Shown: one piece after another, positions 3,535 through 34,862 of the stretch | How positions within the stretch are numbered: position 1 is the stretch's first letter | Layout: each line of letters starts with the position of its first letter | Sequence record: NZ_CP082905.1 | DNA length: 64,000 nt | Reading direction: 5' to 3' (one strand) | Source of the DNA: a plasmid | Notes under the pieces: model-generated | The model's database searches: none | What the model was told of the DNA's origin: nothing | The model's input: only the letters and a program-made list of their open reading frames with translations | Translations under genes and position numbers: made by a program

Positions 3535-3948
3535 TTACTCACTGCAGCGCTGGCGCCAGACCCATGTCATATCAAGCAGATCATTCACCCTTACTCCCCG
3601 GCGTCGCCAGCGGGCATACCACCGCCGGTATGTGCTGACTGACTGGCTGGCCAGTGCCGTTTCTGCCTCCCGGATAAGTTTTTCCTGCGCCTCAGCCTGG
3701 CGCTGCAGGGCCAGCGCAGAACGTCCGGGCATCGCTTCTCCGGGCCGCAGGACTGTGTCAGACAGACCTGGCTCCGGGAGCGTCGGCGCGGGGCTGACAT
3801 CACCATTATCAGCTTTACCTGAATTCAAAACCGGCGCGAACGTATGTACAGGACATCGTGCCACGTCGTACAGATGGCAACGTTTTTGCGGCTGCGGGTA
3901 AACAGGTGGAACCATTAATGGCGTCATCATTACTGTATTCATACGCAT
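3535..3948 (-). CDS. Hypothetical protein (137 aa), last gene of the minus-strand ssb block
   Basis: ORF only; overlaps upstream ORF end by 10 nt; GC-rich region, so the + strand ORF 3419..3901 is an alternative. Confidence 0.25.
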   Translation of the reverse strand: MRMNTVMMTPLMVPPVYPQPQKRCHLYDVARCPVHTFAPVLNSGKADNGDVSPAPTLPEPGLSDTVLRPGEAMPGRSALALQRQAEAQEKLIREAETALASQSVSTYRRWYARWRRRGVRVNDLLDMTWVWRQRCSE

Positions 3949-4481
3949 CCCCCTTTTCTGCCCAGCACCGCCACGATTTCCGCCGGCGTGATACCCGCTG
4001 ACACCATTTCCTCGATGCGCGTCAGCAGCCGGCCGATGGTTTCCGGCTCAAACCGTTCGGTATTCAGAACGTACAGCCCGGTGTGATCGGGATTTATCCA
4101 GATAAGGCCGTGCCAGAACGGAGACTCGTTGCCCGGGCTCAGGATATCGAGCGTGACGTGACGGTTTTTCCGGTGGGTCAGGCGCAGGTGAACCGGGAAC
4201 ACCCCGCCCCACTCCTCCCGGCACTCGCAGTCAGTGAGCCAGCTGTCACTGAGCGGTAAGGCATGGAGTACGGCGCCGCACAGACGGCGGCGGAACTCCT
4301 CGCCGCGTGTGCTGTAGGCCTCAAAATCGCCCGGCGAAAAGGCGTGCAGCCGTTGCAGCGTCACGCTCTCATCGCGCGTCATCTCACTGCCGCTGCAGCT
4401 GCGGAAACCGACCGACCTGCGGCCGTAGTACGCGTGAGTCTTGCCGTTACGGATTTTTTCTTTAGACTGGATAGCTGACAT
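3939..4481 (-). CDS. Hypothetical leading-region protein (180 aa)
   Basis: Long ORF co-oriented with ssb and the DUF905 gene; no family recognised (not PsiB/PsiA by sequence). Confidence 0.5.
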   Translation of the reverse strand: MSAIQSKEKIRNGKTHAYYGRRSVGFRSCSGSEMTRDESVTLQRLHAFSPGDFEAYSTRGEEFRRRLCGAVLHALPLSDSWLTDCECREEWGGVFPVHLRLTHRKNRHVTLDILSPGNESPFWHGLIWINPDHTGLYVLNTERFEPETIGRLLTRIEEMVSAGITPAEIVAVLGRKGGCV

Positions 4482-5380: not shown

Positions 5381-6096
5381 AACGTTTCTCCTCATGCAGT
5401 TGGTTTTTTAACCACGTCACCCGTTGAGTTTCGGGAGCCGCGGTGTTGACGTTTTGTGGAAATCGGCTGGTTTTTTTCTCCGGTATTCACTTCACCCGTT
5501 TGAGATCCTTCGCCGCGAGGGCGTAAACCAGCGCGGGTGACGGCAGACGTCCGGGGCGACGGGGAAATTTATTTCTGGTCTAACGGAGTGGCCGGAAAAA
5601 AATTTTCACGGCGTTCATTTCACCCTGGACGACCACGGCGCCTGTGCTTGTCTCAGCCCCGGCGAAAGGACTTAAACCGGTGAACGGCGTAGGAAAAGCA
5701 CAGCACGATGCAGCAGCAACGACGGCTGAGCGGCAGCGAAACGGCGTTGCGCCTCAGAGCGACGGCGGATTCTGGCCGTCGCGGTTCGCGCCAGCCCTGG
5801 GGCTGGCTGCAGCCCCTGCTTTGCCCTGCGGTGTTTGTGTTTTAGTCTCTGTTTTTTCTGTGGTTTTGGACGACTGTTGTTCAGCCGTCACCATGCCGGC
5901 GCACGCGCCGCGGGCGCGGGCAGACGTAAATGAGAAAAGCGGGGTGACAGAGTTTCAGAACAAATTCCTTATGCGACAGCTCCCTGAAAACGAACAGTGA
6001 TCATACACAACGGGTTTCGCTTAAAAACCCTGCGCCGGCGTTTTCAGAGGAGCGCCAGCACGATTTCTGCTTTCGGCCCTCAGACCCCAGCCGACA

Positions 6097-28271: not shown

Positions 28272-28869
28272 CGCAAACCTCACAGAAGTGGTTAAAAGTT
28301 AAAGTTCAGCAGAGATTTCAACGTATCATGAAATTGAAATATATATAACACGAACTCGATAGTACCAGGTATAAACCCACCTGTAAAGCAAAGATGCCGA
28401 CTCTTACACTCTAATTTAATGACATATATATATCACATAAAGACAACCAAATGAGCGAAACACGAGTTAAGCATCATCTAATTCCTATAAACATGACGTA
28501 TAAGCAACACATATATGTCTTTATCTTTTTTTGTACGAAGCACAACAGGTAACCACTTCAGGCTATTTTGCTCGTTTCATGATGAAGCACCGGTAAGCAT
28601 TTGTCGTCAAGAAAGCATACGGCTGGCAAACCTCGCCATAATCTCAGTTCTAACCTTCTTTACTACCGTCCTGTTACCGCATCCGGTCCGCTGCACCACC
28701 CGTAATGTCTTTATTAAGCAGAGCCTTAGGATGATTACAACAATGGCAACTGTTGAATGGATAAAACGAAGAAAATGGCTCTGAGACTTTTGCTGGCAGG
28801 TTTAATGTGGCACTGTAGCTGGCGGACGCAGAACAGCACCTTGTTCTGTCAGACAAGGATCAGGCATAC

Positions 28870-29098: not shown

Positions 29099-29108
29099 AA
29101 ACCAGACG

Positions 29109-29177
29109 AGCCGCCGCCTGGCGGTTTTTTTACGCCCTTCTCCGGGCATTCGGCAAAACGCCCATTCTGCCGAATGG
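29109..29177. repeat. Intergenic repeat copy A: terminator hairpin AGCCGCCGCCTGGCGG plus T-run, then inverted-repeat motif ATTCGGcAAAACGCC-N7-CCGAAT
   Basis: Seen in sequence; first of at least 9 related copies across 29.1-34.1 kb. Confidence 0.8.
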
Positions 29178-29207
29178 CTGGTTACAAATTATCGTGACTC
29201 ATCACTA

Positions 29208-29585
29208 TTATTCTTCAATCATGCGGTACGTGTAATTCCCCGTCCCCTTTGAGGCAGCCAGCTTGTCGAGCATTTTTTCCGCATCTGCTTTTGTCAGTCC
29301 CCTCTGTACGGTCTGCCAGCGGGCATTTCCCTTACGATCCTGTATTGCCCAGGGCTTTCCAGAGTCGTTATCTGGTGCAACGAATGACATTAGCTGTGAT
29401 TCCAGCTGGCGAATACGATTGTGTGCAGCCTCAAGCAGGGCAAGCAGCTCCGCCCTGGAAGGCTGGGGATGATCCGCCTCGCGGATTTTTTTGTTTTCGC
29501 GATAGCGCCGCGCCCGTTCTGCCGGTGACAGGGCATTTCCGGTACGGGGGCGTCCACGCTGCCGCTTTATGCCGGTATCGTTCAT
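29208..29585 (-). CDS. Hypothetical basic protein with RGRPR AT-hook-like motif (125 aa)
   Basis: KRQRGRPRTGNALSPAERARRYREN; ORF bracketed by repeat copies A and B. Confidence 0.45.
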   Translation of the reverse strand: MNDTGIKRQRGRPRTGNALSPAERARRYRENKKIREADHPQPSRAELLALLEAAHNRIRQLESQLMSFVAPDNDSGKPWAIQDRKGNARWQTVQRGLTKADAEKMLDKLAASKGTGNYTYRMIEE

Positions 29586-29696
29586 AACATACTCCAGCTG
29601 AATAATGATGAGTATATTATATGTGACGAATCACGGTAATTCATTGGCAATAATGTGACGAATCACAGTAATTCTTTATTTTATGCCTGCCTGTAC

Positions 29697-29775
29697 GAAT
29701 TCGGTAAAACCCGCATTCTGCCGACCGCCGCGCAAAAACGAAAAAAGGCGGGGTGGTTAACCCCCGCCTTTGTTC
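29697..29775. repeat. Repeat copy B: GAATTCGGTAAAACCCGCATTCTGCCGA, followed by bidirectional hairpin GGCGGGGTGGTTAACCCCCGCC
   Basis: Seen in sequence. Confidence 0.7.
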
Positions 29776-30370
29776 AAGTTCCTTCAACCCTTACGGGCGT
29801 CCGGTCAGTTGCTTGATGACAACGACAATCTGCAATGTGACGTGAATTATCTTCAACGCCACAAGGATAGTAGTCAGACTTATCACTTGGCAGCCTCCTT
29901 TTATCAGGAGAGCGCCACACGCCGTACGTGCTTATGGGTTCCCCATACGGCGCGTACCAGTAGTTAGCAGGTACAAGCAGCACTCTTTTGAGTGGAAGCA
30001 AACCGGACAGCACCACCTGTTTCCGGTCGGGGTAAAAACTTGCGCGACTAAGCCCATACCCACTTCTGAGAGGCTGCAACAGCGTAGAGCTGCCAACTGC
30101 GACGAGTATAAAGCCGTGCAGCATGGGCCGCAACGTTGACGATATCGTCAATCAGCGTTAATATTGAACACAGTTAGCAGGTACAAGCAGCACCGTACAG
30201 GCAGCGGTCACCAGCCGCGTCCGGTACAGAAAATTAACTCGGTTTACCAGACCGGGTTTTTTTTCGCCTCAAAGATGCCATTTCCGGCACAACTCAGATC
30301 CTATACGCATTCTGTTTATTCCCCTAATTTTCACCGATGGTTTTTAGCGTCTCTTTACGCTTTTATACGC

Positions 30371-30399
30371 AATTCGGTAAAACGCCCATAAAACCGAAG
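30371..30399. repeat. Repeat copy C: AATTCGGTAAAACGCCCATAAAACCGAAG
   Basis: Seen in sequence. Confidence 0.75.
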
Positions 30400-30499
30400 C
30401 CCTTTCCGGCAGCATGTCCCTTCGGGTAGCTTTTATCTGAGTCTTTAACATAGCCCATGTGGTAGCCTGCACCGGTGGCTCTCAGAGAGGTTTATTCAA

Positions 30500-30718
30500 T
30501 TGAAATGGTTCAAGATTTATAATCCTAAAAGTAAACAATGGCTTCAGCAAGATGAGGAAAATGGGAGATATGGCACTCGTATTATCTTCACACAGGATGA
30601 ATCCCGTGCGGGGTTCTGGTCTGAAACAGAAATCCGCTGGATGACCATCCCGCCAGGATCAGAACTTATTTCTTTCAGCCCGAGCCAGGAGGATATCCGA
30701 TACCGGTATTGGGAATGA
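30500..30718 (+). CDS. Small hypothetical protein (72 aa, TTG start)
   Basis: ORF with GAGAGG about 9 nt upstream; between repeat copies C and D. Confidence 0.3.
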   Translation: MKWFKIYNPKSKQWLQQDEENGRYGTRIIFTQDESRAGFWSETEIRWMTIPPGSELISFSPSQEDIRYRYWE

Positions 30719-30756
30719 ACCAAACCGGTCAAGAGATCTTTATGCCTATTCGCCCT

Positions 30757-30787
30757 TGTTCGGTAAAACGCCTATATTACCGAACCG
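30757..30787. repeat. Repeat copy D: TTGTTCGGTAAAACGCCTATATTACCGAACC
   Basis: Seen in sequence. Confidence 0.75.
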
Positions 30788-30811
30788 CAGCACTGTACAA
30801 TGCCTGTCTCA

Positions 30812-31459
30812 TCACGCCTGATCTTCAGCTGCTGATTTACGTGCCCGTGCTGCAACACGGCTTGCGTATCTTTCCTTACGGCGTATCGCTGCTGCCGATT
30901 CGGATGCTCTTATTTCTATTAAGCGTTTTCTGATGGCCTCTGCCGGATTGAACCCCTCTTCCCATGAGGTATGCCTGATGTTAAACGTCCGGCAAATATC
31001 TTCTGACAACTCGACCACATAAAGGCCATGCTTCGCATACAACTCCCGCCTCTTTGCGAAGTAAGCCGAAAAATCTGGGGGATCTTCAAAATACTCATCA
31101 TCAAGATTGTCGAGTGTGTTGATGACCTGAATATGTTTAGATTCGATGCTGTGCAGCCGGTACAGCATATTAGTATTAAGGTATTTAAATTCGCCTTTTA
31201 CCGCTGAGAGTTTTAGCTCTGGTTTATTATATTTCATTGACACATATTCCAACTCTTGGCTATATATACCATCATTGCTCGCAAGAAACTCACACTCGGA
31301 AATATATTTATCAAGAATAAAAACAAGCTGAACAATAATATATCTCTCTTCTTTTTTTCCTTTTTTTGTTTCCCAGACAAGCTCTTTGACTGCATTAAAA
31401 ATCAGGGGTACTGCTATCGCAGCCGCAGCCCCCAGTAATGTCCATGTTTCCTTTTCCAC
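30812..31459 (-). CDS. AT-rich hypothetical membrane-anchored protein (about 215 aa from GTG 31459; ORF is open to 31633)
   Basis: Low-GC ORF with N-terminal TM WTLLGAAAAIAVPLIFNAV and RBS GAGGG before GTG; no ATG between 31633 and 31230. Confidence 0.4.
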   Translation of the reverse strand: MEKETWTLLGAAAAIAVPLIFNAVKELVWETKKGKKEERYIIVQLVFILDKYISECEFLASNDGIYSQELEYVSMKYNKPELKLSAVKGEFKYLNTNMLYRLHSIESKHIQVINTLDNLDDEYFEDPPDFSAYFAKRRELYAKHGLYVVELSEDICRTFNIRHTSWEEGFNPAEAIRKRLIEIRASESAAAIRRKERYASRVAARARKSAAEDQA

Positions 31460-31557
31460 TGAAACCCTCGCCCATGCTGCAAGTATTCTTACCCTACAGT
31501 TTATACTGTACGACAGGATGGCCTGCTTAGCTTTTACCAAAGCTGACCTATCTCTCC

Positions 31558-31588
31558 GGATTCGGTAAAACGCCAATTCTGCCGAACC
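31558..31588. repeat. Repeat copy E: GGATTCGGTAAAACGCCAATTCTGCCGAACC
   Basis: Seen in sequence. Confidence 0.75.
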
Positions 31589-31652
31589 GTGAAACGGCGC
31601 ACGCTGCCGGCTATAATTGCTGTCGCGATTCATTCACTAAAAGGAACAAATC

Positions 31653-31964
31653 TTGAAAACGGGATTAATTTCACTGAGCTTGCTGGCCGCCGTACTGCTT
31701 ACCGGCTGCGATGCAGGCGCGCAGAGCCTTGAATGGTATAAGGCGCATGATAAGGAGCGAAACGCAAAAGTTGAAGAGTGTAAGAAAGCCTCGAATCCGC
31801 GTGGCACCGAAGACTGCCGTAACGCGATTGATGCTTCTGTTCGTGCTGGGGGCAATATTACACATAGCAAACCTAAAGAGTGGACTCTCGATGGTTCTAA
31901 GGGTTATCTGGGGATAAGCCGCCGCGAGGCGGTTTTTTTACGCTCTTCTCCGGGCATTCGGTAA
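31653..31964 (+). CDS. Putative lipoprotein (103 aa)
   Basis: Signal peptide with lipobox LLTGC; the 3' end reads through repeat copy F and stops at the TAA inside CGGTAAAAC. Confidence 0.55.
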   Translation: MKTGLISLSLLAAVLLTGCDAGAQSLEWYKAHDKERNAKVEECKKASNPRGTEDCRNAIDASVRAGGNITHSKPKEWTLDGSKGYLGISRREAVFLRSSPGIR

Positions 31965-31986
31965 AACGCCTATAAAACCGAATTTG
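31916..31986. repeat. Repeat copy F: terminator AAGCCGCCGCGAGGCGG plus T7, then CATTCGGTAAAACGCCTATAAAACCGAATTT
   Basis: Seen in sequence. Confidence 0.8.
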
Positions 31987-32351
31987 CCATGTAAACAAAA
32001 AATCCGCCCCAGTGGGACGGCCTAAAACGGTAAGCTGTTTTATGTCCCCAGGGGGACTTCATCTCCGATTAAAGAAAATTTTCGATTAGGGACAGTATAA
32101 CTGTCACCAGATTAATCACTGCCGTAATAAGCTCGATCATAACCCGCATCCTCATGCTGATGCGTGGCGTTTACCTACCTCCCGCCGTATATTCGCCCAG
32201 AAGGTTTCGGAACTCCGCTTTCGCTAAGAATGAAGTTAACCACACATATATTGCCCCCGGCCCAGGGATGCGACCCCCTTCGTCTGGGACTCCTTCCTTA
32301 CAGCTCGTTCCCTCTGTTACCAAAAAATCAGTTCTAACTTAGGAGATTAAA

Positions 32352-32435
32352 ATGACTGATTACCGCAGTGTTGCGCGGTTTTTTACTGAAGCACTATATG
32401 GATTCATCTTAGCGATGCGGAAGTATAAAGCGTAA
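32352..32435 (+). CDS. Candidate 27-aa small protein MTDYRSVARFFTEALYGFILAMRKYKA
   Basis: Strong SD AGGAGA 7 nt before the ATG; amphipathic/hydrophobic core; not in the ORF track because under 60 aa. Confidence 0.3.
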   Translation: MTDYRSVARFFTEALYGFILAMRKYKA

Positions 32436-32584
32436 GCACGACTTATCAAAGCGGGATTTGATAAGGTAGGTCATATGACGTACACTGAAAGAGCTAAGAA
32501 TGAAGTTAACCACACCGTTATGCCAGCCTGCGAAACTGACGTAACGGTAAGAAACCCTGCCCTAGAGCGGGGTTTCTGCCATCT

Positions 32585-32652
32585 GACCGCCGCCAGGCGG
32601 TTTTTTTACGCCCTTTTCCCGCCGTTCGGTAATACCTCAATCCTGCCGGATG
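32585..32652. repeat. Repeat copy G: terminator GACCGCCGCCAGGCGG plus T7, then degenerate CCGTTCGGTAATACC-N-CCGGATGG
   Basis: Seen in sequence. Confidence 0.7.
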
Positions 32653-32779
32653 GTTCCCGCTGCGGCCTGTTGGTTCTGTTTTTCAAGGCTATTGTCGGGG
32701 CTACATTTAGTAATTTGAAAAACTCCACAAACTGATATGATTATCTTCATCTACCTAAGGCCAACACACAGAGCAAAAC

Positions 32780-33817
32780 GTGTCCATGCATAAATCAAAA
32801 GAACAAGTTGCAGAAATATTGAGCGATTATTTTACTCTTTGTATTGCAATTGTGACTGAAGATTCTTCAGATTATCAAAAGCACGTTCTAACCTATCAAT
32901 TTTCCCGGCAACAAGTCTTGGGGCTGGATAACGAGTTAATGCTCCCTAATTGGATTTTAGCCGCTGCAAGTATTCCTCTTTTAAAGTCTCATGTTGACTT
33001 ACATGTTCAGGGGGGGGCGGGAAGTTGGGCCAGGAGACGAACTTATCTCCACTCAGTAATGGACACCATTCTGCAAACCTATAGAAATCCTGTAGCATCT
33101 AACTTTTCGCAGGCAATGGCTGATGCTTTTAAAGCAGCTAAGTCTGCCCCACCTTCTTATCAAGACGCGGGATCATCTAACTTTTCGCAAGCAATGGCTG
33201 ATGCTTTTAAAGCAGCTAAGTCTGATTCACCTTCTTATCAAGACGCGGGATCATTGCTTTTATCACAGCATGCTGAAAATTCACATAAATCCTCTTATGA
33301 ACACCAGGGTAATGTCTCTTATCCATCTAAGCAACCGACAAGTGACAACATTCGTCAGGAAGAGTTAAAGCTGGGTATGTCTAATGCCGGAAGCCCAGAC
33401 GTGGAAAGTAAAAAGAAGGTGTTTATAGTTCATGGCCATGATGAGCTGTTAAAAAATGAAGTATATGTTTTTCTGAGTCAGGAAGGCTATGAACCCATAA
33501 TACTCCATCTTCAGGCAAATAAGGGATCAACCATCATTGAAAAGCTTGAAGAGAATATTGCAGACGTTTCGTTCGCCGTGATTTTATATACAGCATGTGA
33601 TCAAGGTAAATCTTTTAAAGAGGCTGATTTGAAATCCCGTGCGCGTCAGAACGTTGTTTTTGAGCATGGGTATTTAATCTGTAAGCTTGGCAGAGAACGC
33701 GTGGCTGCCCTTAAAAGTGACGGTGTTGAAATACCTGGTGATCTCTCCGGGCTAATAACTATCCCAACGAGTAACTGGCAGTATGAACTCCTGAAAGAAC
33801 TGAAAGCAGCCAATTGA
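32780..33817 (+). CDS. Two-domain protein: N-terminal unknown region with 2x26-aa tandem repeat, C-terminal TIR-like nucleotide-binding domain (PF10137-like)
   Basis: C-terminus KKVFIVHGHDELLKNEVYVFLSQEGYEPIILHLQ..GSTIIEKLEENIADVSFAVILYTACDQG...RARQNVVFEHGYLICKLGRERVAAL matches my memory of the TIR-like/COG4271 pattern. Confidence 0.6.
   Translation: MSMHKSKEQVAEILSDYFTLCIAIVTEDSSDYQKHVLTYQFSRQQVLGLDNELMLPNWILAAASIPLLKSHVDLHVQGGAGSWARRRTYLHSVMDTILQTYRNPVASNFSQAMADAFKAAKSAPPSYQDAGSSNFSQAMADAFKAAKSDSPSYQDAGSLLLSQHAENSHKSSYEHQGNVSYPSKQPTSDNIRQEELKLGMSNAGSPDVESKKKVFIVHGHDELLKNEVYVFLSQEGYEPIILHLQANKGSTIIEKLEENIADVSFAVILYTACDQGKSFKEADLKSRARQNVVFEHGYLICKLGRERVAALKSDGVEIPGDLSGLITIPTSNWQYELLKELKAAN
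33097..33252. repeat. 78-bp perfect-frame tandem duplication (2 copies) encoding SNFSQAMADAFKAAKS.PPSYQDAGS
   Basis: Near-identical 78-bp units starting at 33097 and 33175. Confidence 0.85.
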
Positions 33818-33830
33818 AACAACAACCGGT

Positions 33831-33899
33831 AACCGCCGCCAGGCGGTTTTTTTACGCCCTTCTCCGGGCATTCGGTAAAACCCTTATATTACCGAATCG
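33831..33899. repeat. Repeat copy H: terminator AACCGCCGCCAGGCGG plus T7, then CATTCGGTAAAACCCTTATATTACCGAATCG
   Basis: Seen in sequence. Confidence 0.8.
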
Positions 33900-34009
33900 C
33901 CCCGCTGCGGCGCTGAATACTATATGTTGTGCTTTTCCCAGCTGGCAGACATACGAGATATAGTGGTCTGACGGTCATCGCCGGGGCAGGCCGCGCCGGT
34001 TTTCCCGCT

Positions 34010-34054
34010 GCGCCGTTCGGTAAAACTCCGGCAGCGGAGGCTTTAACCGAATGC
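34010..34054. repeat. Repeat copy I (degenerate, longer loop): CGCCGTTCGGTAAAACTCC...CTTTAACCGAATGCG
   Basis: Seen in sequence. Confidence 0.55.
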
Positions 34055-34190
34055 GATTTACCGCCAGCGGAGTTTTTCTTCTTGTCTTTTTTCAGAATCA
34101 TGTCGAGAAGCACTAATCCTATTAGGATTATCAGGTGAGCCCTTATGACATGTACTAATACGGTCGGTTTCGTACATGTAGAATATAGCC

Positions 34191-34221
34191 TGTCCGAAAG
34201 TTAGTGTTTTTAATTTCGGAC
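34191..34221. promoter_or_regulatory. res/rfs-like resolution site core: perfect inverted repeat TGTCCGAAA-N13-TTTCGGACA upstream of the resolvase gene
   Basis: Seen in sequence; flanked by additional GTAC-containing subsites. Confidence 0.55.
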
Positions 34222-34265
34222 ATGCGCTATAATAAGTACACCTATTTCGTACACAAAATAACTAC

Positions 34266-34862
34266 ATGTCACGAGTCTTTGCCTACTGCAGGGTATCGAC
34301 CCTCGAACAGAACACTGAAAACCAGCGTCGTGAAATCGAAGCGGCCGGCTTTGCCATCAGACCCCAGCGACTGATTGAAGAGTACATAAGTGGTTCAGTC
34401 GCGGCTGCTGAACGCCCTGGATTTATGCGTCTCCTTGATCGAATGGAAAACGGGGACGTTTTAATCGTAACGAAGCTGGATCGCCTCGGGCGAAACGCCA
34501 TGGATATCAGAAAAACCGTTGAGCTACTTTCTGCGTCAGAAATACGGGTACACTGCCTGGCGCTGGGAGGGGTAGACCTCACCAGTCCGGCCGGAAAGAT
34601 GACAATGCAGGTAATCTCGGCGGTTGCTGAATTTGAGCGCGATCTGCTACTTGAACGTACACATGCTGGTATTGCGCGGGCTAAGGCATCCGGAAAGCGT
34701 TTCGGCCGCCCGCCGGCTCTGGATGACGAACAAAAGAAAGCGGTGTTCTTGCGTCTTAGTGAAGGGAAGAGTATCAGCGCGATCGCCCGCGAATTTGACA
34801 CCACACGGCAGACCATTTTAAGAGTGAAAGCGATAATGGAAGACGCTGATGCTCGTTCATGA
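34266..34862 (+). CDS. resD: Serine recombinase/resolvase, F-plasmid ResD-like
   Basis: [25 protein letters not shown] (catalytic Ser10) ... C-terminal HTH; strong resemblance to F ResD. Confidence 0.9.

What the first reader, a model, noticed from the sequence alone, without database searches (positions are those of the whole stretch)
29100..34060. Family of at least 9 intergenic repeats (terminator hairpin plus conserved TTCGGTAAAACGCC-N7-9-CCGAA inverted repeat) punctuating an array of small and unknown genes
Repeat structure:
- Copies A to I share the arm TTCGGTAAAACGCC and a short inverted CCGAA, with a variable loop.
- Several copies are preceded about 25 bp upstream by the same GC hairpin (CCGCCGCCAGGCGG) plus a T-run.
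- All copies have the same orientation, although the flanking genes run both ways.

Possible roles:
- The units separate individual small ORFs like cassette junctions.
- They do not fit integron attC (no GTTRRRY core), REP or iteron patterns that I know.
- They could be operator sites of a plasmid-wide regulon, recombination or shuffling sites, or structured RNA elements.
Basis: seen in the sequence. Interest (0 to 1): 0.72.

Follow-up and report, generated by a model that had tools for sequence, protein, structure and literature searches.

The report
Junction repeats of plasmid gene cassettes
A conserved 26-base sequence marks the boundaries of single-gene modules (toxins, anti-phage defence genes, unknowns) that are shuffled like cassettes among plasmids of enteric and plant-associated bacteria, which points to an undescribed integron-like way of assembling accessory genes next to the plasmid's multimer-resolution site.

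Summary
Nine copies of an asymmetric 26-bp imperfect palindrome lie at 29149-34051. All are on the + strand and all are intergenic. Four copies are fused to the same upstream intrinsic terminator. A model built only from copies in other replicons finds exactly these nine in the 64 kb.

The unit recurs in IncN, IncR, pKPC_UVA01-like and Pantoea/Erwinia F-like plasmids. In 110 loci with 237 units, 63 of 64 arrays have one orientation, and median spacing is 790 bp.

The 89 inter-unit segments fall into 49 cassette families. Nineteen recur with different neighbours. Cassette genes face either way (23+/22-). They include a TIR protein, CBASS cyclase, BstA, an NYN protein and type-I-toxin-like peptides. 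Most have no Pfam match.

Every complete array ends in a conserved ~215-bp 'H-I' module. It contains two rfsF-like (ResD-target-like) repeats between the last unit and a long-centre unit. A resolution recombinase gene often follows. Related arrays differ at the slot next to this module.

Homology breakpoints fall inside the unit, around its central bases.

Best reading (inferred, not shown): the units are recombination junctions of an integron-like cassette system, probably 11-6-11 core sites of a tyrosine recombinase. They are not attC, pdif, CUP, REP or a structured RNA. The enzyme is unidentified.

The parts
29149..29174 (+). Unit A (TTCGGCAAAACGCCCATTCTGCCGAA), first junction of the array
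   Evidence: E 1.3e-6
29700..29725 (+). Unit B
   Evidence: E 3.8e-7
30373..30398 (+). Unit C
   Evidence: E 2.2e-8
30759..30784 (+). Unit D
   Evidence: E 9e-9
31561..31586 (+). Unit E
   Evidence: E 4.7e-9
31957..31982 (+). Unit F
   Evidence: E 5.2e-9
32625..32650 (+). Unit G (most diverged: TTCGGTAATACCTCAATCCTGCCGGA)
   Evidence: E 0.033
33871..33896 (+). Unit H, the last short unit and left border of the terminal H-I module
   Evidence: E 1e-8
34016..34051 (+). Unit I, the long-centre variant (36 bp). In all 35 arrays where it is seen it is the last unit.
29111..29131 (+). Intrinsic terminator (CCGCCGCCTGGCGG + T7) fused upstream of unit A. Equivalent copies lie at 31919-31939, 32587-32607 and 33833-33853.
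   Evidence: (family D2)
33897..34015 (+). Interior of the H-I module: CCGCTGCGG (33902-33910); two rfsF-like repeats, ACTATATGTTGTG (33919-33931) and GAGATATAGTGG (33955-33966); and a GC-rich stretch
   Evidence: alignment of 31 modules. The 13-mer is shared with F between pifC and ccdA. PMC4398462 places two rfsF sites in that part of F.
34052..34085 (+). Conserved right end of the H-I module (CCGCCAGCGGAGTTTTTCTTC); homology among modules stops here
29175..29699 (-). Cassette F46: 125-aa AT-hook/leucine-zipper-like protein (29208..29585 -) with two 25-bp direct repeats upstream (29621-29677)
   Evidence: The same cassette lies between units in Pantoea alhagi pPALTYR11Z.
29726..30372 (-). 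Cassette F1: type-I-toxin-like module with a 31-aa hydrophobic ORF (29791..29886 -)
   Evidence: Seen in 7 arrays with different neighbours.
30399..30758 (+). Cassette F8: 72-aa ORF (30500..30718 +)
   Evidence: also in Pantoea sp. IMH, between other cassettes
30785..31560 (-). Cassette F47: ORF 30812..31633 -, with a probable internal start near 31465; no Pfam match
   Evidence: It aligns at ~69-70% nucleotide identity with the unit-flanked F5 cassettes of L019 and L034.
31587..31956 (+). Cassette F10: small lipoprotein gene (31653..31964 +) with its own promoter-like site at 31589-31617
31983..32624 (-). Cassette F48: second type-I-toxin-like module with a 28-aa ORF (32069..32155 -)
   Evidence: present in pKPC2_CF65 and a Cronobacter plasmid
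32651..33870 (+). Cassette F14: TIR-domain protein (32780..33817 +); matches the CAP12/Pycsar TIR domain and PADLOC PDC-S35
   Evidence: It is absent between the equivalent units in pKPC2_CF65 and present in L054 and L007 with other neighbours.
34146..34862 (+). Neighbour, not part of the repeat family: res site (TGT(A/C)CGAAA 9-mers, 34146-34256) and serine resolvase gene (34266..34862)
   Evidence: (inverted repeat I19)

Best explanation
The units are the junction sites of a plasmid-borne gene-cassette array.

**Cassettes.** Each cassette is one small gene or operon with its own promoter and terminator, in either orientation. It is bounded by a unit on each side.

**Movement.** Cassettes move between arrays by recombination that breaks and rejoins inside the unit. 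Excision between two directly repeated units gives a circle carrying one unit. Re-insertion at a unit of another array restores two units in the same orientation. This explains the uniform polarity.

**Array structure.** Arrays are anchored to a terminal H-I module: unit H, two rfsF-like ResD-target repeats, then long-centre unit I. This module usually lies upstream of the plasmid's resolution recombinase. New cassettes are gained or lost mainly at unit H, which plays an attI-like role.

**Site type.** I infer that the unit is a core-type site for a tyrosine recombinase with 11-6-11 geometry: ATTCGGTAAAA | CSCYNA | TNNNNCCGAAT. The best-placed candidate enzyme is the ResD-family recombinase encoded next to many arrays.

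**The window's array** has only a serine resolvase with its own res site beside it. It would therefore be an orphan array, served in trans or now static.

**What is shown:**
- the repeat family and its polarity
- cassette reassortment
- the terminal module
- breakpoints inside the unit

**What is inferred:**
- site-specific rather than homologous exchange
- the circular intermediate
- the identity of the enzyme
For: 1. **Real, specific motif.** About 19 conserved positions in an asymmetric bipartite arrangement.
2. **Polarity.** 63 of 64 arrays with at least 2 units have one orientation. The long unit I is always last, mostly 119 bp after H.
3. **Independence from genes.** Gene strand relative to the unit is 23+/22-. 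Units A, D and F sit between convergent genes.
4. **Reassortment.** 89 cassettes fall into 49 families, and 19 recur with different neighbours. F1 follows F5, F30 or F7 in three arrays. F14 follows F48 or F13. Single window cassettes occur alone in other plasmids, with homology ending at the units.
5. **Change at the H-proximal slot.** This holds in 6 of 6 informative comparisons:
   - F4|HI vs F4-F2|HI
   - F13|HI vs F13-F14|HI
   - F48|HI vs F48-F14|HI
   - F14|HI vs F14-F7|HI
   - F7|HI vs F7-F1|HI
   - F5|HI vs F5-F1|HI
6. **Breakpoint mapping**:
   - Sequence up to position -1 travels with the left cassette. The spacer is similar in 24 of 59 cluster pairs, against a 3.4% baseline.
   - Positions 18-26 travel with the right cassette. 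Identity is 0.94/0.85/0.81/0.66, and positions 18-21 are identical in 28 of 60 pairs, against 10.7%.
   - Central positions 12-15 follow neither side (10/60 and 10/59, against 10.5%).
   - The same positions are 91-96% identical when both flanks are homologous, so they are not simply hypermutable.
   - The exchange points therefore flank the central 6 bp of an 11-6-11 site.
7. **Link to a recombinase.** A ResD-like tyrosine recombinase follows unit I in 8 arrays, and a serine resolvase in 3. The H / rfsF-like / I architecture is kept upstream of this recombinase clade from 100% down to 48% protein identity.
8. **Cargo.** Defence, toxin and unknown genes resemble integron or pdif cargo.
Against: - No recombinase has been shown to bind or cut the unit.
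- The window, and the complete IncN plasmid examined, carry units but no ResD-like gene. Arrays sit next to two unrelated recombinase families, or next to none.
- The published ResD targets (rfsF) correspond to the other repeats in the H-I module, not to the units. F, which has ResD and rfsF, has no units.
- At H-type units, positions 18-21 are only weakly linked to the H-I module (32/191, against 10.7%). A single fixed crossover does not fit this.
- The linkage pairs are not independent, and metagenome contigs may be redundant.
- All loci were retrieved with a pattern that demands a nearly perfect unit, so conservation is over-estimated.
- Decayed units exist in L005 and L006.
- Where two units share the 30-bp terminator, ordinary homologous recombination could give the same indels. 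The window versus pKPC2_CF65 TIR-cassette junction cannot be placed.
Confidence: 0.45

Rival explanations
1. Portable homology. The unit plus its terminator is a conserved intergenic linker, and cassettes are exchanged by RecA-dependent or slippage-type homologous recombination between these 26-68-bp repeats. No dedicated recombinase exists. Uniform orientation follows from excision and re-insertion through direct repeats.
For: - Four window units share about 68 bp at 81-87% identity, including a 30-bp near-identical terminator stretch.
- CUP repeats of IncN plasmids are reported to mediate deletions and inversions in this way.
- No cognate enzyme was found in the window.
- The TIR-cassette indel between the window and pKPC2_CF65 is compatible with exchange in the shared terminator.
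Against: - Most units (146 of 199) lack the terminator. That leaves only an 11-nt and a 5-nt identical block, far below the roughly 25 bp that efficient RecA recombination is generally taken to need (my own knowledge).
- Homology alone does not explain strong purifying selection on a specific bipartite inverted motif, while cassettes diverge to about 70% identity.
- Where terminators are present, the spacer at -12..-1 is not linked to the right-hand cassette. Breaks are concentrated in the unit, not spread over the longer homology.
- Homology alone does not explain the polar array with a special last unit, or change concentrated at the H-proximal slot.
Confidence: 0.25
2. Protein-binding regulatory or insulating element. 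A dimeric plasmid or host protein binds TTCGG..CCGAA, whose half-sites are 21 bp apart in short units and 31 bp in unit I (two and three helical turns). Binding silences, insulates or coordinates the cassettes. Recombination at the units is a by-product.
For: - The motif is strongly conserved and asymmetric with inverted outer arms, and shows no RNA-type covariation.
- The half-site spacing keeps helical phase between short and long units.
- Unit E abuts a promoter-like site at 31589-31617.
- IncN plasmids do have a repeat-based regulon, CUP/ArdK.
Against: - Units A, D and F lie between convergent gene ends, where no promoter is expected.
- Unit orientation follows the array, not the gene (63/64 arrays; genes 23+/22-).
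- No protein shared by the unit-bearing plasmids was identified.
- The local AT-hook protein is a rare cassette gene with its own operator-like repeats.
- The units differ from ArdK/CUP sites.
- This idea does not explain the special terminal module or the breakpoint pattern.
Confidence: 0.15
3. Strand-specific nucleic-acid structure. The unit folds as a hairpin in RNA or in single-stranded DNA, for example on the transferred or lagging strand. It would act as a processing, priming or attC-like folded recombination signal.
For: - Orientation is uniform irrespective of gene direction.
- The outer 5-8 bp can pair.
- Integron attC sites work as folded single strands (established knowledge).
Against: - Pairing frequencies at all 13 positions equal the column-shuffle expectation, with no compensatory change.
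- The inner right arm varies freely while the left arm is fixed.
- The insert in unit I does not conserve a stem.
- There is no Rfam match.
- Many units lie just downstream of an intrinsic terminator, so they are poorly transcribed from the + strand.
Confidence: 0.05

Closest known systems
Integron gene-cassette arrays (attC sites, attI, IntI)
   Same: - Arrays of mostly single-gene cassettes with diverse, largely unknown or toxin/defence cargo.
- Cassettes are separated by imperfectly palindromic repeats, all in one orientation.
- A distinct terminal site sits next to a recombinase gene, and cassette content changes preferentially there.
- Orphan arrays without the enzyme exist.
   Different: - No GTTRRRY / RYYYAAC cores.
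- The unit is 26 bp, against 57-141 bp for attC.
- There is no evidence for a folded single-strand substrate.
- No IntI was found.
- Cassettes carry their own promoters and terminators and face both ways equally.
- The host elements are plasmid maintenance regions.
pdif (XerC/XerD) modules of Acinetobacter plasmids
   Same: - 28-bp sites with 11-6-11 geometry, related to the plasmid's multimer-resolution function.
- These sites flank discrete modules (resistance, toxin-antitoxin) that shuffle among plasmids (papers listed).
   Different: - pdif sites alternate in orientation (C/D then D/C). Here all units are direct.
- The arms do not match XerC/XerD consensus: the best arm shares 6 of 11 bases.
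- The hosts are Enterobacterales.
- A special long terminal unit and the rfsF-like repeats are present.
rfsF / ResD multimer-resolution system of F, IncI1 and IncR plasmids
   Same: - The interior of the H-I module carries two repeats (CTAYATNTNGTG) like those at the reported position of the two rfsF sites of F.
- A ResD-family gene follows the module in 8 arrays.
- Published work reports rfsF as a place where plasmid segments are swapped or inserted.
   Different: - The dispersed units are a different sequence from rfsF.
- F has rfsF and ResD but no units.
- Arrays of unit-bounded single-gene cassettes are not mentioned in any of the papers read here.
CUP (conserved upstream) repeats of IncN plasmids
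   Same: - Direct repeats in one orientation that punctuate an array of small genes in a plasmid establishment/maintenance region.
- Recombination between copies causes deletions.
- They occur in the same plasmids (IncN) as some units.
   Different: - CUPs are repeats of at least ~175 bp (the core shared by copies) that carry a promoter and an ArdK site, at the 5' end of co-oriented operons.
- There is no sequence similarity to the unit.
REP/BIME-type intergenic palindromes
   Same: Short imperfect palindromes in intergenic regions, often after the 3' ends of genes and between convergent genes.
   Different: - REPs are abundant in chromosomes. The module tested in E. coli (H-I, with the terminator and units H and I) is in 38 of 20,395 replicons, 33 of them plasmids.
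- The exact unit pattern occurs in only 24 Enterobacterales stretches among 185,579 species genomes.
- The sequence is different, and the units form polar arrays.

Membership tests
Integron attC site | Inverse core RYYYAAC at the 5' end and core GTTRRRY at the 3' end of a 57-141-bp imperfect palindrome | tested here: not met
   The unit is 26 bp. Its arms are (R)TTCGGT ... RCCGAA(Y), arranged the opposite way round and without the core sequences.
Integron attC site | Structure-based recognition: conserved folded hairpin with sequence-variable stems | tested here: not met
   There is no covariation, and pairing equals the shuffle expectation. Sequence is conserved, not structure.
Integron | An IntI-type integrase with attI and Pc adjacent to the array | tested here: not met
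   The neighbour is a serine resolvase. The window's other tyrosine recombinases lie at 14-17 kb in a metal-resistance element. Other arrays have ResD-like enzymes, not IntI. Not every window ORF was scanned.
pdif / Xer site | 11-bp XerC and XerD arms matching GGTGCGCATAA and TTATGTTAAAT around a 6-8-bp centre | tested here: not met
   The 11-6-11 geometry fits. By my own base-by-base comparison of the unit with consensus arms recalled from the literature (no tool run), the best arm (TTTTACCGAAT) shares 6 of 11 bases with the XerD consensus, and the other arm shares 3 of 7 defined bases.
pdif modules | Modules flanked by inversely oriented sites (C/D then D/C) | tested here: not met
   63 of 64 arrays have all units in direct orientation.
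IncN CUP element | [quoted passage not shown] | tested here: not met
   CUP copies of pKPC_FCF3SP were located by self-BLAST and read. There is no similarity to the unit, and units lie elsewhere in that plasmid (1848, 3699, 4357).
rfsF (ResD target) | Sequence like the two sites reported at the start of the F RepFIA region, next to a resD gene | tested here: inconclusive
   The interior of the H-I module shares ACTATATGTTGTG with F at the reported position, together with a second related repeat. The dispersed units themselves do not resemble it.
REP/BIME | Hundreds of chromosomal copies; conserved GTAG-type head; associated RAYT transposase | tested here: not met
   Only 5 chromosomal places for the H-I module in 5,426 E. 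coli genomes, in an integrated element at guaA in the one examined. No such head sequence. No HUH protein was found among the window ORFs scanned with Pfam, which were not all ORFs.
Intrinsic (Rho-independent) terminator | GC-rich hairpin followed by a T-run at the 3' end of a gene | tested here: met
   This applies only to the hairpins upstream of units A, F, G and H. The 26-bp unit itself has no T-run.
Tyrosine-recombinase core-type site (general) | Two inverted recombinase-binding arms around a 6-8-bp overlap region where strands are exchanged | tested here: inconclusive
   The geometry (11-6-11) fits, and so does the position of the block linked to neither flank (positions 12-15). The inner right arm is not conserved, and no binding or cleavage data exist.
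Tyrosine-recombinase core-type site (general) | Recombination dependent on a cognate recombinase | not testable with these tools
   This needs in vivo or in vitro recombination assays.

The most novel reading that the evidence does not exclude
Enterobacterales plasmids (IncN, IncR, pKPC_UVA01-type, Pantoea/Erwinia F-like) carry a third kind of gene-cassette system, beside integrons and Acinetobacter pdif modules. Single-gene cassettes are bounded by a 28-bp 11-6-11 site. A ResD-family recombinase, or another not yet identified, captures them at the border of the plasmid's own multimer-resolution site. This builds polar arrays enriched in anti-phage defence, toxin and unknown genes.
Probability: 0.4. 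Interest if true: 0.85.

Novelty: new variant of a known kind. Interest (0 to 1): 0.74.

Why it matters
If the units are recombination sites, plasmids that spread carbapenemases and other resistance genes have a dedicated route for collecting and exchanging small defence and addiction genes beside their resolution locus. These include IncN, IncR and the pKPC_UVA01 and pKPC2_CF65 types.

- It would explain a variable region of these backbones that is currently annotated only as hypothetical genes.
- It gives a simple sequence tag for finding cassettes. Eighteen of the 20 cassette proteins scanned had no significant Pfam family.
- It extends the idea seen with pdif modules, that multimer-resolution machinery is co-opted for gene shuffling, from Acinetobacter to Enterobacterales.
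- The question can be tested directly with standard two-plasmid recombination assays.

Tried and rejected
- **Sigma-70 promoter inside the unit.** Reading both strands by eye gave no acceptable -35/-10 pair, and the promoter scan placed none over a unit.
- **Other signals**, all checked by eye against consensus sequences recalled from memory, none fitting: sigma-54 and sigma-28 promoters, boxA/boxB (nut-like), Ter/Tus, IHF, Fis, ArgR box, LexA, CpxR, TyrR, and type I restriction targets.
- **Known RNA family.** Rfam at E up to 1 gave only three chance-level hits.
- **Hairpin or covariation.** None. The apparent stem in the centre of unit I is not maintained across 31 modules.
- **Protein-coding explanation for the H-I module** (74-aa ORF on the - strand). 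Rejected because homologues carry 1-nt and 2-nt indels.
- **Invertase-type 12-2-12 site (hix/gix-like).** A superficial match of 9/12 in the left half. A 2-bp crossover does not fit the 4-nt block linked to neither flank. The local resolvase's own res site (TGT(A/C)CGAAA) is separate and differently arranged.
- **CUP/ArdK elements.** Different sequence and position.
- **Rule that a cassette is flanked by identical central tetranucleotides.** This holds for some cassettes (AT-hook cassette, F1b) but not in general.
- **Literature search.** The motif string and cassette-related terms found no description of this repeat.
- **Flavobacteriia hits.** The pattern also picked up an unrelated, perfectly palindromic repeat family. 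These loci were excluded.

Full report
**1. Checking the observation**

The region was read directly. Nine copies of the motif lie at these positions:
- A 29149-29174
- B 29700-29725
- C 30373-30398
- D 30759-30784
- E 31561-31586
- F 31957-31982
- G 32625-32650
- H 33871-33896
- I 34016-34051

All nine are on the + strand.

This is more than chance:
- The pattern TTCGGYAAWAC..CCGRA has 7 exact matches, against none in 100 dinucleotide-preserving shuffles.
- The 14-mer with up to three mismatches has 19 matches, against a mean of 6.1.
- The repeat finder groups the copies into families of 7 (49 nt) and 4 (68 nt).

An independent test used a sequence-only model. It was built from 50 units taken from other replicons, with none from the window.
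- It finds exactly these nine sites, all on the + strand.
- Seven have E-values between 5e-9 and 1e-6. G scores 0.033 and I, as a partial match, 0.037.
- The next best hit anywhere in the 64 kb has E 0.34.

Copies A, F, G and H are preceded by the same terminator-like hairpin plus T7. B, C and D keep only TTTAYGC about 17 nt upstream.

- The loop is 7 nt in eight copies and 17 nt in copy I.
- The hairpin begins 38 nt upstream of the unit.

**2. Anatomy of the unit**

In 107 distinct copies the consensus is TTCGGTAAAAC-S-C-Y-N-A-T-N4-CCGAA.
- The left eleven bases, C13, A16, T17 and the right five bases are each conserved in 92-100% of the 107 copies.
- Positions 12, 14, 15 and 18-21 vary.
- With the flanking A and T, the unit reads as ATTCGGTAAAA | CSCYNA | TNNNNCCGAAT, an 11-6-11 layout.
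- Only the outer 5-6 bp are truly inverted repeats.
- Pairing frequencies for every possible stem position equal the column-shuffle expectation, so nothing selects for a hairpin.
- Rfam finds nothing.

One caveat applies. All outside loci were retrieved with a pattern that demands a nearly perfect unit, so these conservation figures are upper estimates. Decayed copies do exist (L005, L006).

**3. Context in the window**

The window is part of an F-like Pantoea-type plasmid. It carries TraI/TraD, ParMR, UmuDC, metal-resistance genes, and Rep3 and IncFII-like replication genes.

The units separate eight segments of 145-1246 bp (unit start to unit start). Seven hold one small gene or gene module. 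The eighth is the gene-less H-to-I interval (section 6).

| Segment | Content | Strand |
|---|---|---|
| A-B | AT-hook/zipper-like protein, with its own upstream 25-bp direct repeats | - |
| B-C | type-I-toxin-like module | - |
| C-D | 72-aa ORF | + |
| D-E | unknown protein | - |
| E-F | small lipoprotein | + |
| F-G | second toxin-like module | - |
| G-H | TIR-domain protein | + |
| H-I | no gene; interior of the H-I module | |

Sources.

Units A, D and F lie between convergent gene ends, where no promoter or operator is expected.

Downstream of unit I lies a separate res site. It is made of TGT(A/C)CGAAA 9-mers and is followed by a serine resolvase gene. The units are therefore not this resolvase's res subsites.

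**4. Distribution**

- The 68-nt terminator-plus-unit matches 140 plasmid records. A 34-nt core matches 347. Most are from Klebsiella, Enterobacter, Citrobacter, Escherichia and Pantoea.
- Hosts include:
  - IncN (pKPC_FCF3SP)
  - IncR (pK245)
  - pKPC2_CF65-type and pKPC_UVA01-type plasmids
  - Pantoea and Erwinia plasmids
- An exact-pattern scan of one genome for each of 185,579 species found 44 stretches.
  - 24 are in Enterobacterales, mostly on plasmid-like contigs.
  - About 20 are Flavobacteriia loci or lone chance-level matches in other taxa.
  - The Flavobacteriia loci carry an unrelated, perfectly palindromic repeat family.
- In 5,426 complete E. coli genomes, the H-I module occurs in 38 of 20,395 replicons. 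Thirty-three are plasmids. The one chromosomal hit examined lies in an integrated conjugative-type element at guaA.

**5. The units bound mobile cassettes**

Individual window segments occur singly in other plasmids, with homology ending at the units:
- The AT-hook segment is in Pantoea alhagi pPALTYR11Z.
- The first toxin module is in a P. agglomerans plasmid.
- The second toxin module is in pKPC2_CF65 and a Cronobacter plasmid.
- The TIR segment is exactly missing between the equivalent units of pKPC2_CF65.

I added 80 metagenome loci and analysed 110 loci with 237 units.
- 63 of 64 arrays with two or more units have one orientation. The exception is two arrays lying back to back.
- Unit-to-unit spacing has a median of 790 bp.

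The 89 inter-unit segments cluster into 49 families. Nineteen are seen more than once, with different neighbours. For example:
- F1 follows F5, F30 or F7 in different arrays.
- The TIR cassette F14 follows F48 in the window and F13 in L054.

The main ORF of a cassette faces either way relative to the unit: 23 on the + strand and 22 on the - strand.

Cargo:
- a CBASS oligonucleotide cyclase
- BstA
- a TIR protein matching the candidate defence family PDC-S35
- an NYN-domain protein
- a phosphoribosyltransferase-like protein
- short hydrophobic toxin-like peptides

Of 20 cassette proteins scanned, 18 had no significant Pfam family.

**6. Arrays are polar and end in a special module**

The long-centre unit I is always the last unit (35 arrays). 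It usually lies 119 bp after the last short unit, H.

The alignment of 31 H-I modules shows a conserved layout:
1. unit H
2. CCGCTGCGG, or in another variant an inverted pair TTATCCAC..GTGGATAA
3. two repeats of the form CTAYATNTNGTG about 36 bp apart
4. a GC-rich stretch
5. unit I
6. CCGCCAGCGGAGTTTTT

The 13-mer ACTATATGTTGTG is also found in plasmid F between pifC and ccdA, with ATGTAGTG 36 bp upstream. The pEC958 paper places two rfsF sites, the targets of the ResD resolvase, in that part of F (PMC4398462). I therefore read the interior of the H-I module as rfsF-like. The published rfsF sequence itself was not available in text, so this is an inference.

Downstream of unit I, 8 arrays have a ResD-family tyrosine recombinase, 41% identical to F ResD. 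Three have a serine resolvase, and the rest vary.

Seen from the recombinase side, the architecture is kept upstream of this ResD-like clade from 100% down to about 48% protein identity. The unit-like elements become progressively more diverged (Enterobacter, Serratia, Edwardsiella and Yersinia plasmids). F has ResD and rfsF but no units.

Related arrays differ at the slot next to H in all six informative comparisons:

| Array without the extra cassette | Array with it |
|---|---|
| F4, then H-I | F4-F2, then H-I |
| F13, then H-I | F13-F14, then H-I |
| F48, then H-I | F48-F14, then H-I |
| F14, then H-I | F14-F7, then H-I |
| F7, then H-I | F7-F1, then H-I |
| F5, then H-I | F5-F1, then H-I |

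F1 also occupies the terminal slot behind three different left neighbours. This resembles preferential capture at a primary site. However, contig ends and the way loci were collected could bias the comparison.

**7. Where the exchanges happen**

I compared units whose left cassettes are homologous but whose right cassettes are not, and the reverse.

| Region | Travels with | Evidence |
|---|---|---|
| Upstream sequence to position -1 | left cassette | spacer similar in 24 of 59 cluster-level pairs, baseline 3.4% |
| Positions 18-26 and downstream flank | right cassette | identity 0.94/0.85/0.81/0.66 at positions 18-21; identical in 28 of 60 pairs, baseline 10.7% |
| Central positions 12-15 | neither | 10/59 and 10/60 pairs, baseline 10.5% |

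- The central positions are 91-96% identical when both flanks are homologous, so they are not simply hypermutable.
- Breakpoints therefore lie within the unit, on both sides of its centre. They do not lie in the longer terminator homology, nor 40-60 bp to the right in the rfsF-like remnants that some cassettes keep at their left ends (F14, F47, F10).
- This is what is expected if strands are exchanged at the two ends of a roughly 6-bp overlap region between two recombinase-binding arms, and partners often differ in that region.

Limits of this analysis:
- The pairs are not independent.
- Units next to the H-I module show only weak linkage of positions 18-21 to the module (32/191).
- Gene-conversion patches could mimic the pattern.

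**8. Interpretation**

The best-supported explanation has three parts.
- The units are junction and recombination sites of a cassette array. The uniform polarity follows from excision and re-insertion through direct repeats.
- The H-I module acts as the anchor.
- I favour site-specific exchange, at a tyrosine-recombinase-type 11-6-11 site, over plain homologous recombination. The reasons are these:
  - Most units (146 of 199) offer only 11+5 identical bases.
  - The specific bipartite motif is kept while cassettes diverge to about 70% identity.
  - The breaks are localised inside the unit.
  - The array has a special end.

The enzyme is not established. A ResD-family recombinase is the best-placed candidate. 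Against it, ResD's reported targets are the other repeats in the module. The window has only a serine resolvase next to the array, and the complete IncN plasmid examined has no ResD-like gene. Under this model the window's array would be an orphan, analogous to attC clusters that lack an integrase.

Rivals and my confidence in each:

| Explanation | Confidence |
|---|---|
| Cassette junction and recombination site (best explanation) | 0.45 |
| Homology-only linkers | 0.25 |
| Protein-binding operator or insulator | 0.15 |
| RNA or single-stranded DNA structure | 0.05 |

**9. Comparison with known systems**

- **Integrons.** The architecture is closest to integron cassette arrays, but the defining attC cores, the folded-strand signature and IntI are absent.
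- **pdif modules.** It also resembles Acinetobacter pdif modules, but the arms do not match XerC/XerD sites and the orientation does not alternate.
- **CUP repeats.** It differs from the CUP repeats of IncN plasmids in sequence, size and position.
- **REP elements.** It differs from REP elements in abundance and host replicon.
- **Literature.** The searches found no description of this repeat. Published work does report rfsF as a point where plasmid segments are exchanged.

**10. Verdict**

This is a real, widespread and apparently undescribed repeat family that defines cassette arrays in Enterobacterales plasmids.
- I rate it a new variant of a known kind of system, namely recombination-site-bounded gene cassettes.
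- The mechanism is inferred, not demonstrated.
- Interest is 0.74.

Noticed in passing
window 29726-30372 and 31983-32624: Two cassettes look like type I toxin-antitoxin loci. Each has a short hydrophobic ORF on the - strand: 31 aa at 29791..29886 (MISLTTILVALKIIHVTLQIVVVIKQLTGRP) and 28 aa at 32069..32155 (MRMRVMIELITAVINLVTVILSLIENFL). Each also has a - strand terminator and a pair of 22-23-bp direct repeats (29962/30172; 32223/32493). A similar peptide is encoded in the IncN plasmid (L001, about 3804-3983). None matched Rfam.
   Followed up: partly
window 29208-29677: A 125-aa protein has an N-terminal RGRPRTG AT-hook-like/basic region and a leucine-zipper-like helix. Its upstream region carries two 25-bp direct repeats, ATGTGACGAATCACRGTAATTC (29621-29645 and 29653-29677), which are probably its own operator. 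It has no Pfam match.
   Followed up: partly
window 34146-34256: This is a Tn3-like res site for the adjacent serine resolvase. It has three inverted pairs of TGT(A/C)CGAAA-type 9-mers, including TGTCCGAAA-N14-TTTCGGACA at 34191-34222.
   Followed up: no
window 33096-33251: There is a 78-bp tandem duplication (95% identical) inside the TIR-protein gene. It encodes a repeated 26-aa segment, NFSQAMADAFKAAKS..PSYQDAGS.
   Followed up: no
L008, L009, L012, L014, L022, L028 and other Chryseobacterium/Flavobacterium loci: This is a different repeat family with a perfectly palindromic 26-bp core, TTCGGTAAAACCCC(C/T)ATTTTACCGAA. Both sides are flanked by GTTCGG motifs spaced every 11 bp, in mirror orientation, and there are many copies per genome. 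It looks like a multi-site protein-binding element or a mobile-element end. Sharing the core with the plasmid unit may be coincidence.
   Followed up: no
L152 (plasmid F) about 5990-6040; L001 9810-9870; window 33919-33966: The motif pair ATGTAGTG / ACTATATGTTGTG, about 36 bp apart, is shared by three places: the F region that a paper assigns to rfsF, the region upstream of ardB in an IncN plasmid, and the H-I module. In some H-I variants an inverted DnaA-box-like pair, TTATCCACCGTTTCTGTGGATAA, replaces CCGCTGCGG.
   Followed up: partly
window 31589-31617, 32651-32720 and 30785-30820: The left ends of several cassettes (lipoprotein, TIR, F47) retain decayed copies of the sequence that follows unit H (GGCGCAC.., CCGCTGCGG, GCTACATTTAGT, GCCTGTCTCA). 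In the lipoprotein cassette, the former rfsF-like repeat now supplies the -10-like TATAAT.
   Followed up: partly
window 28336-28440: AT-rich repeats (GAAATATATATAACACGAA and similar) lie upstream of parM. They probably form the parC centromere of the ParMR system that borders the array on the left.
   Followed up: no
L090: This is the only locus with units in both orientations. Two arrays lie back to back (319-, 495-, 1303- and 1851+, 2113+).
   Followed up: no
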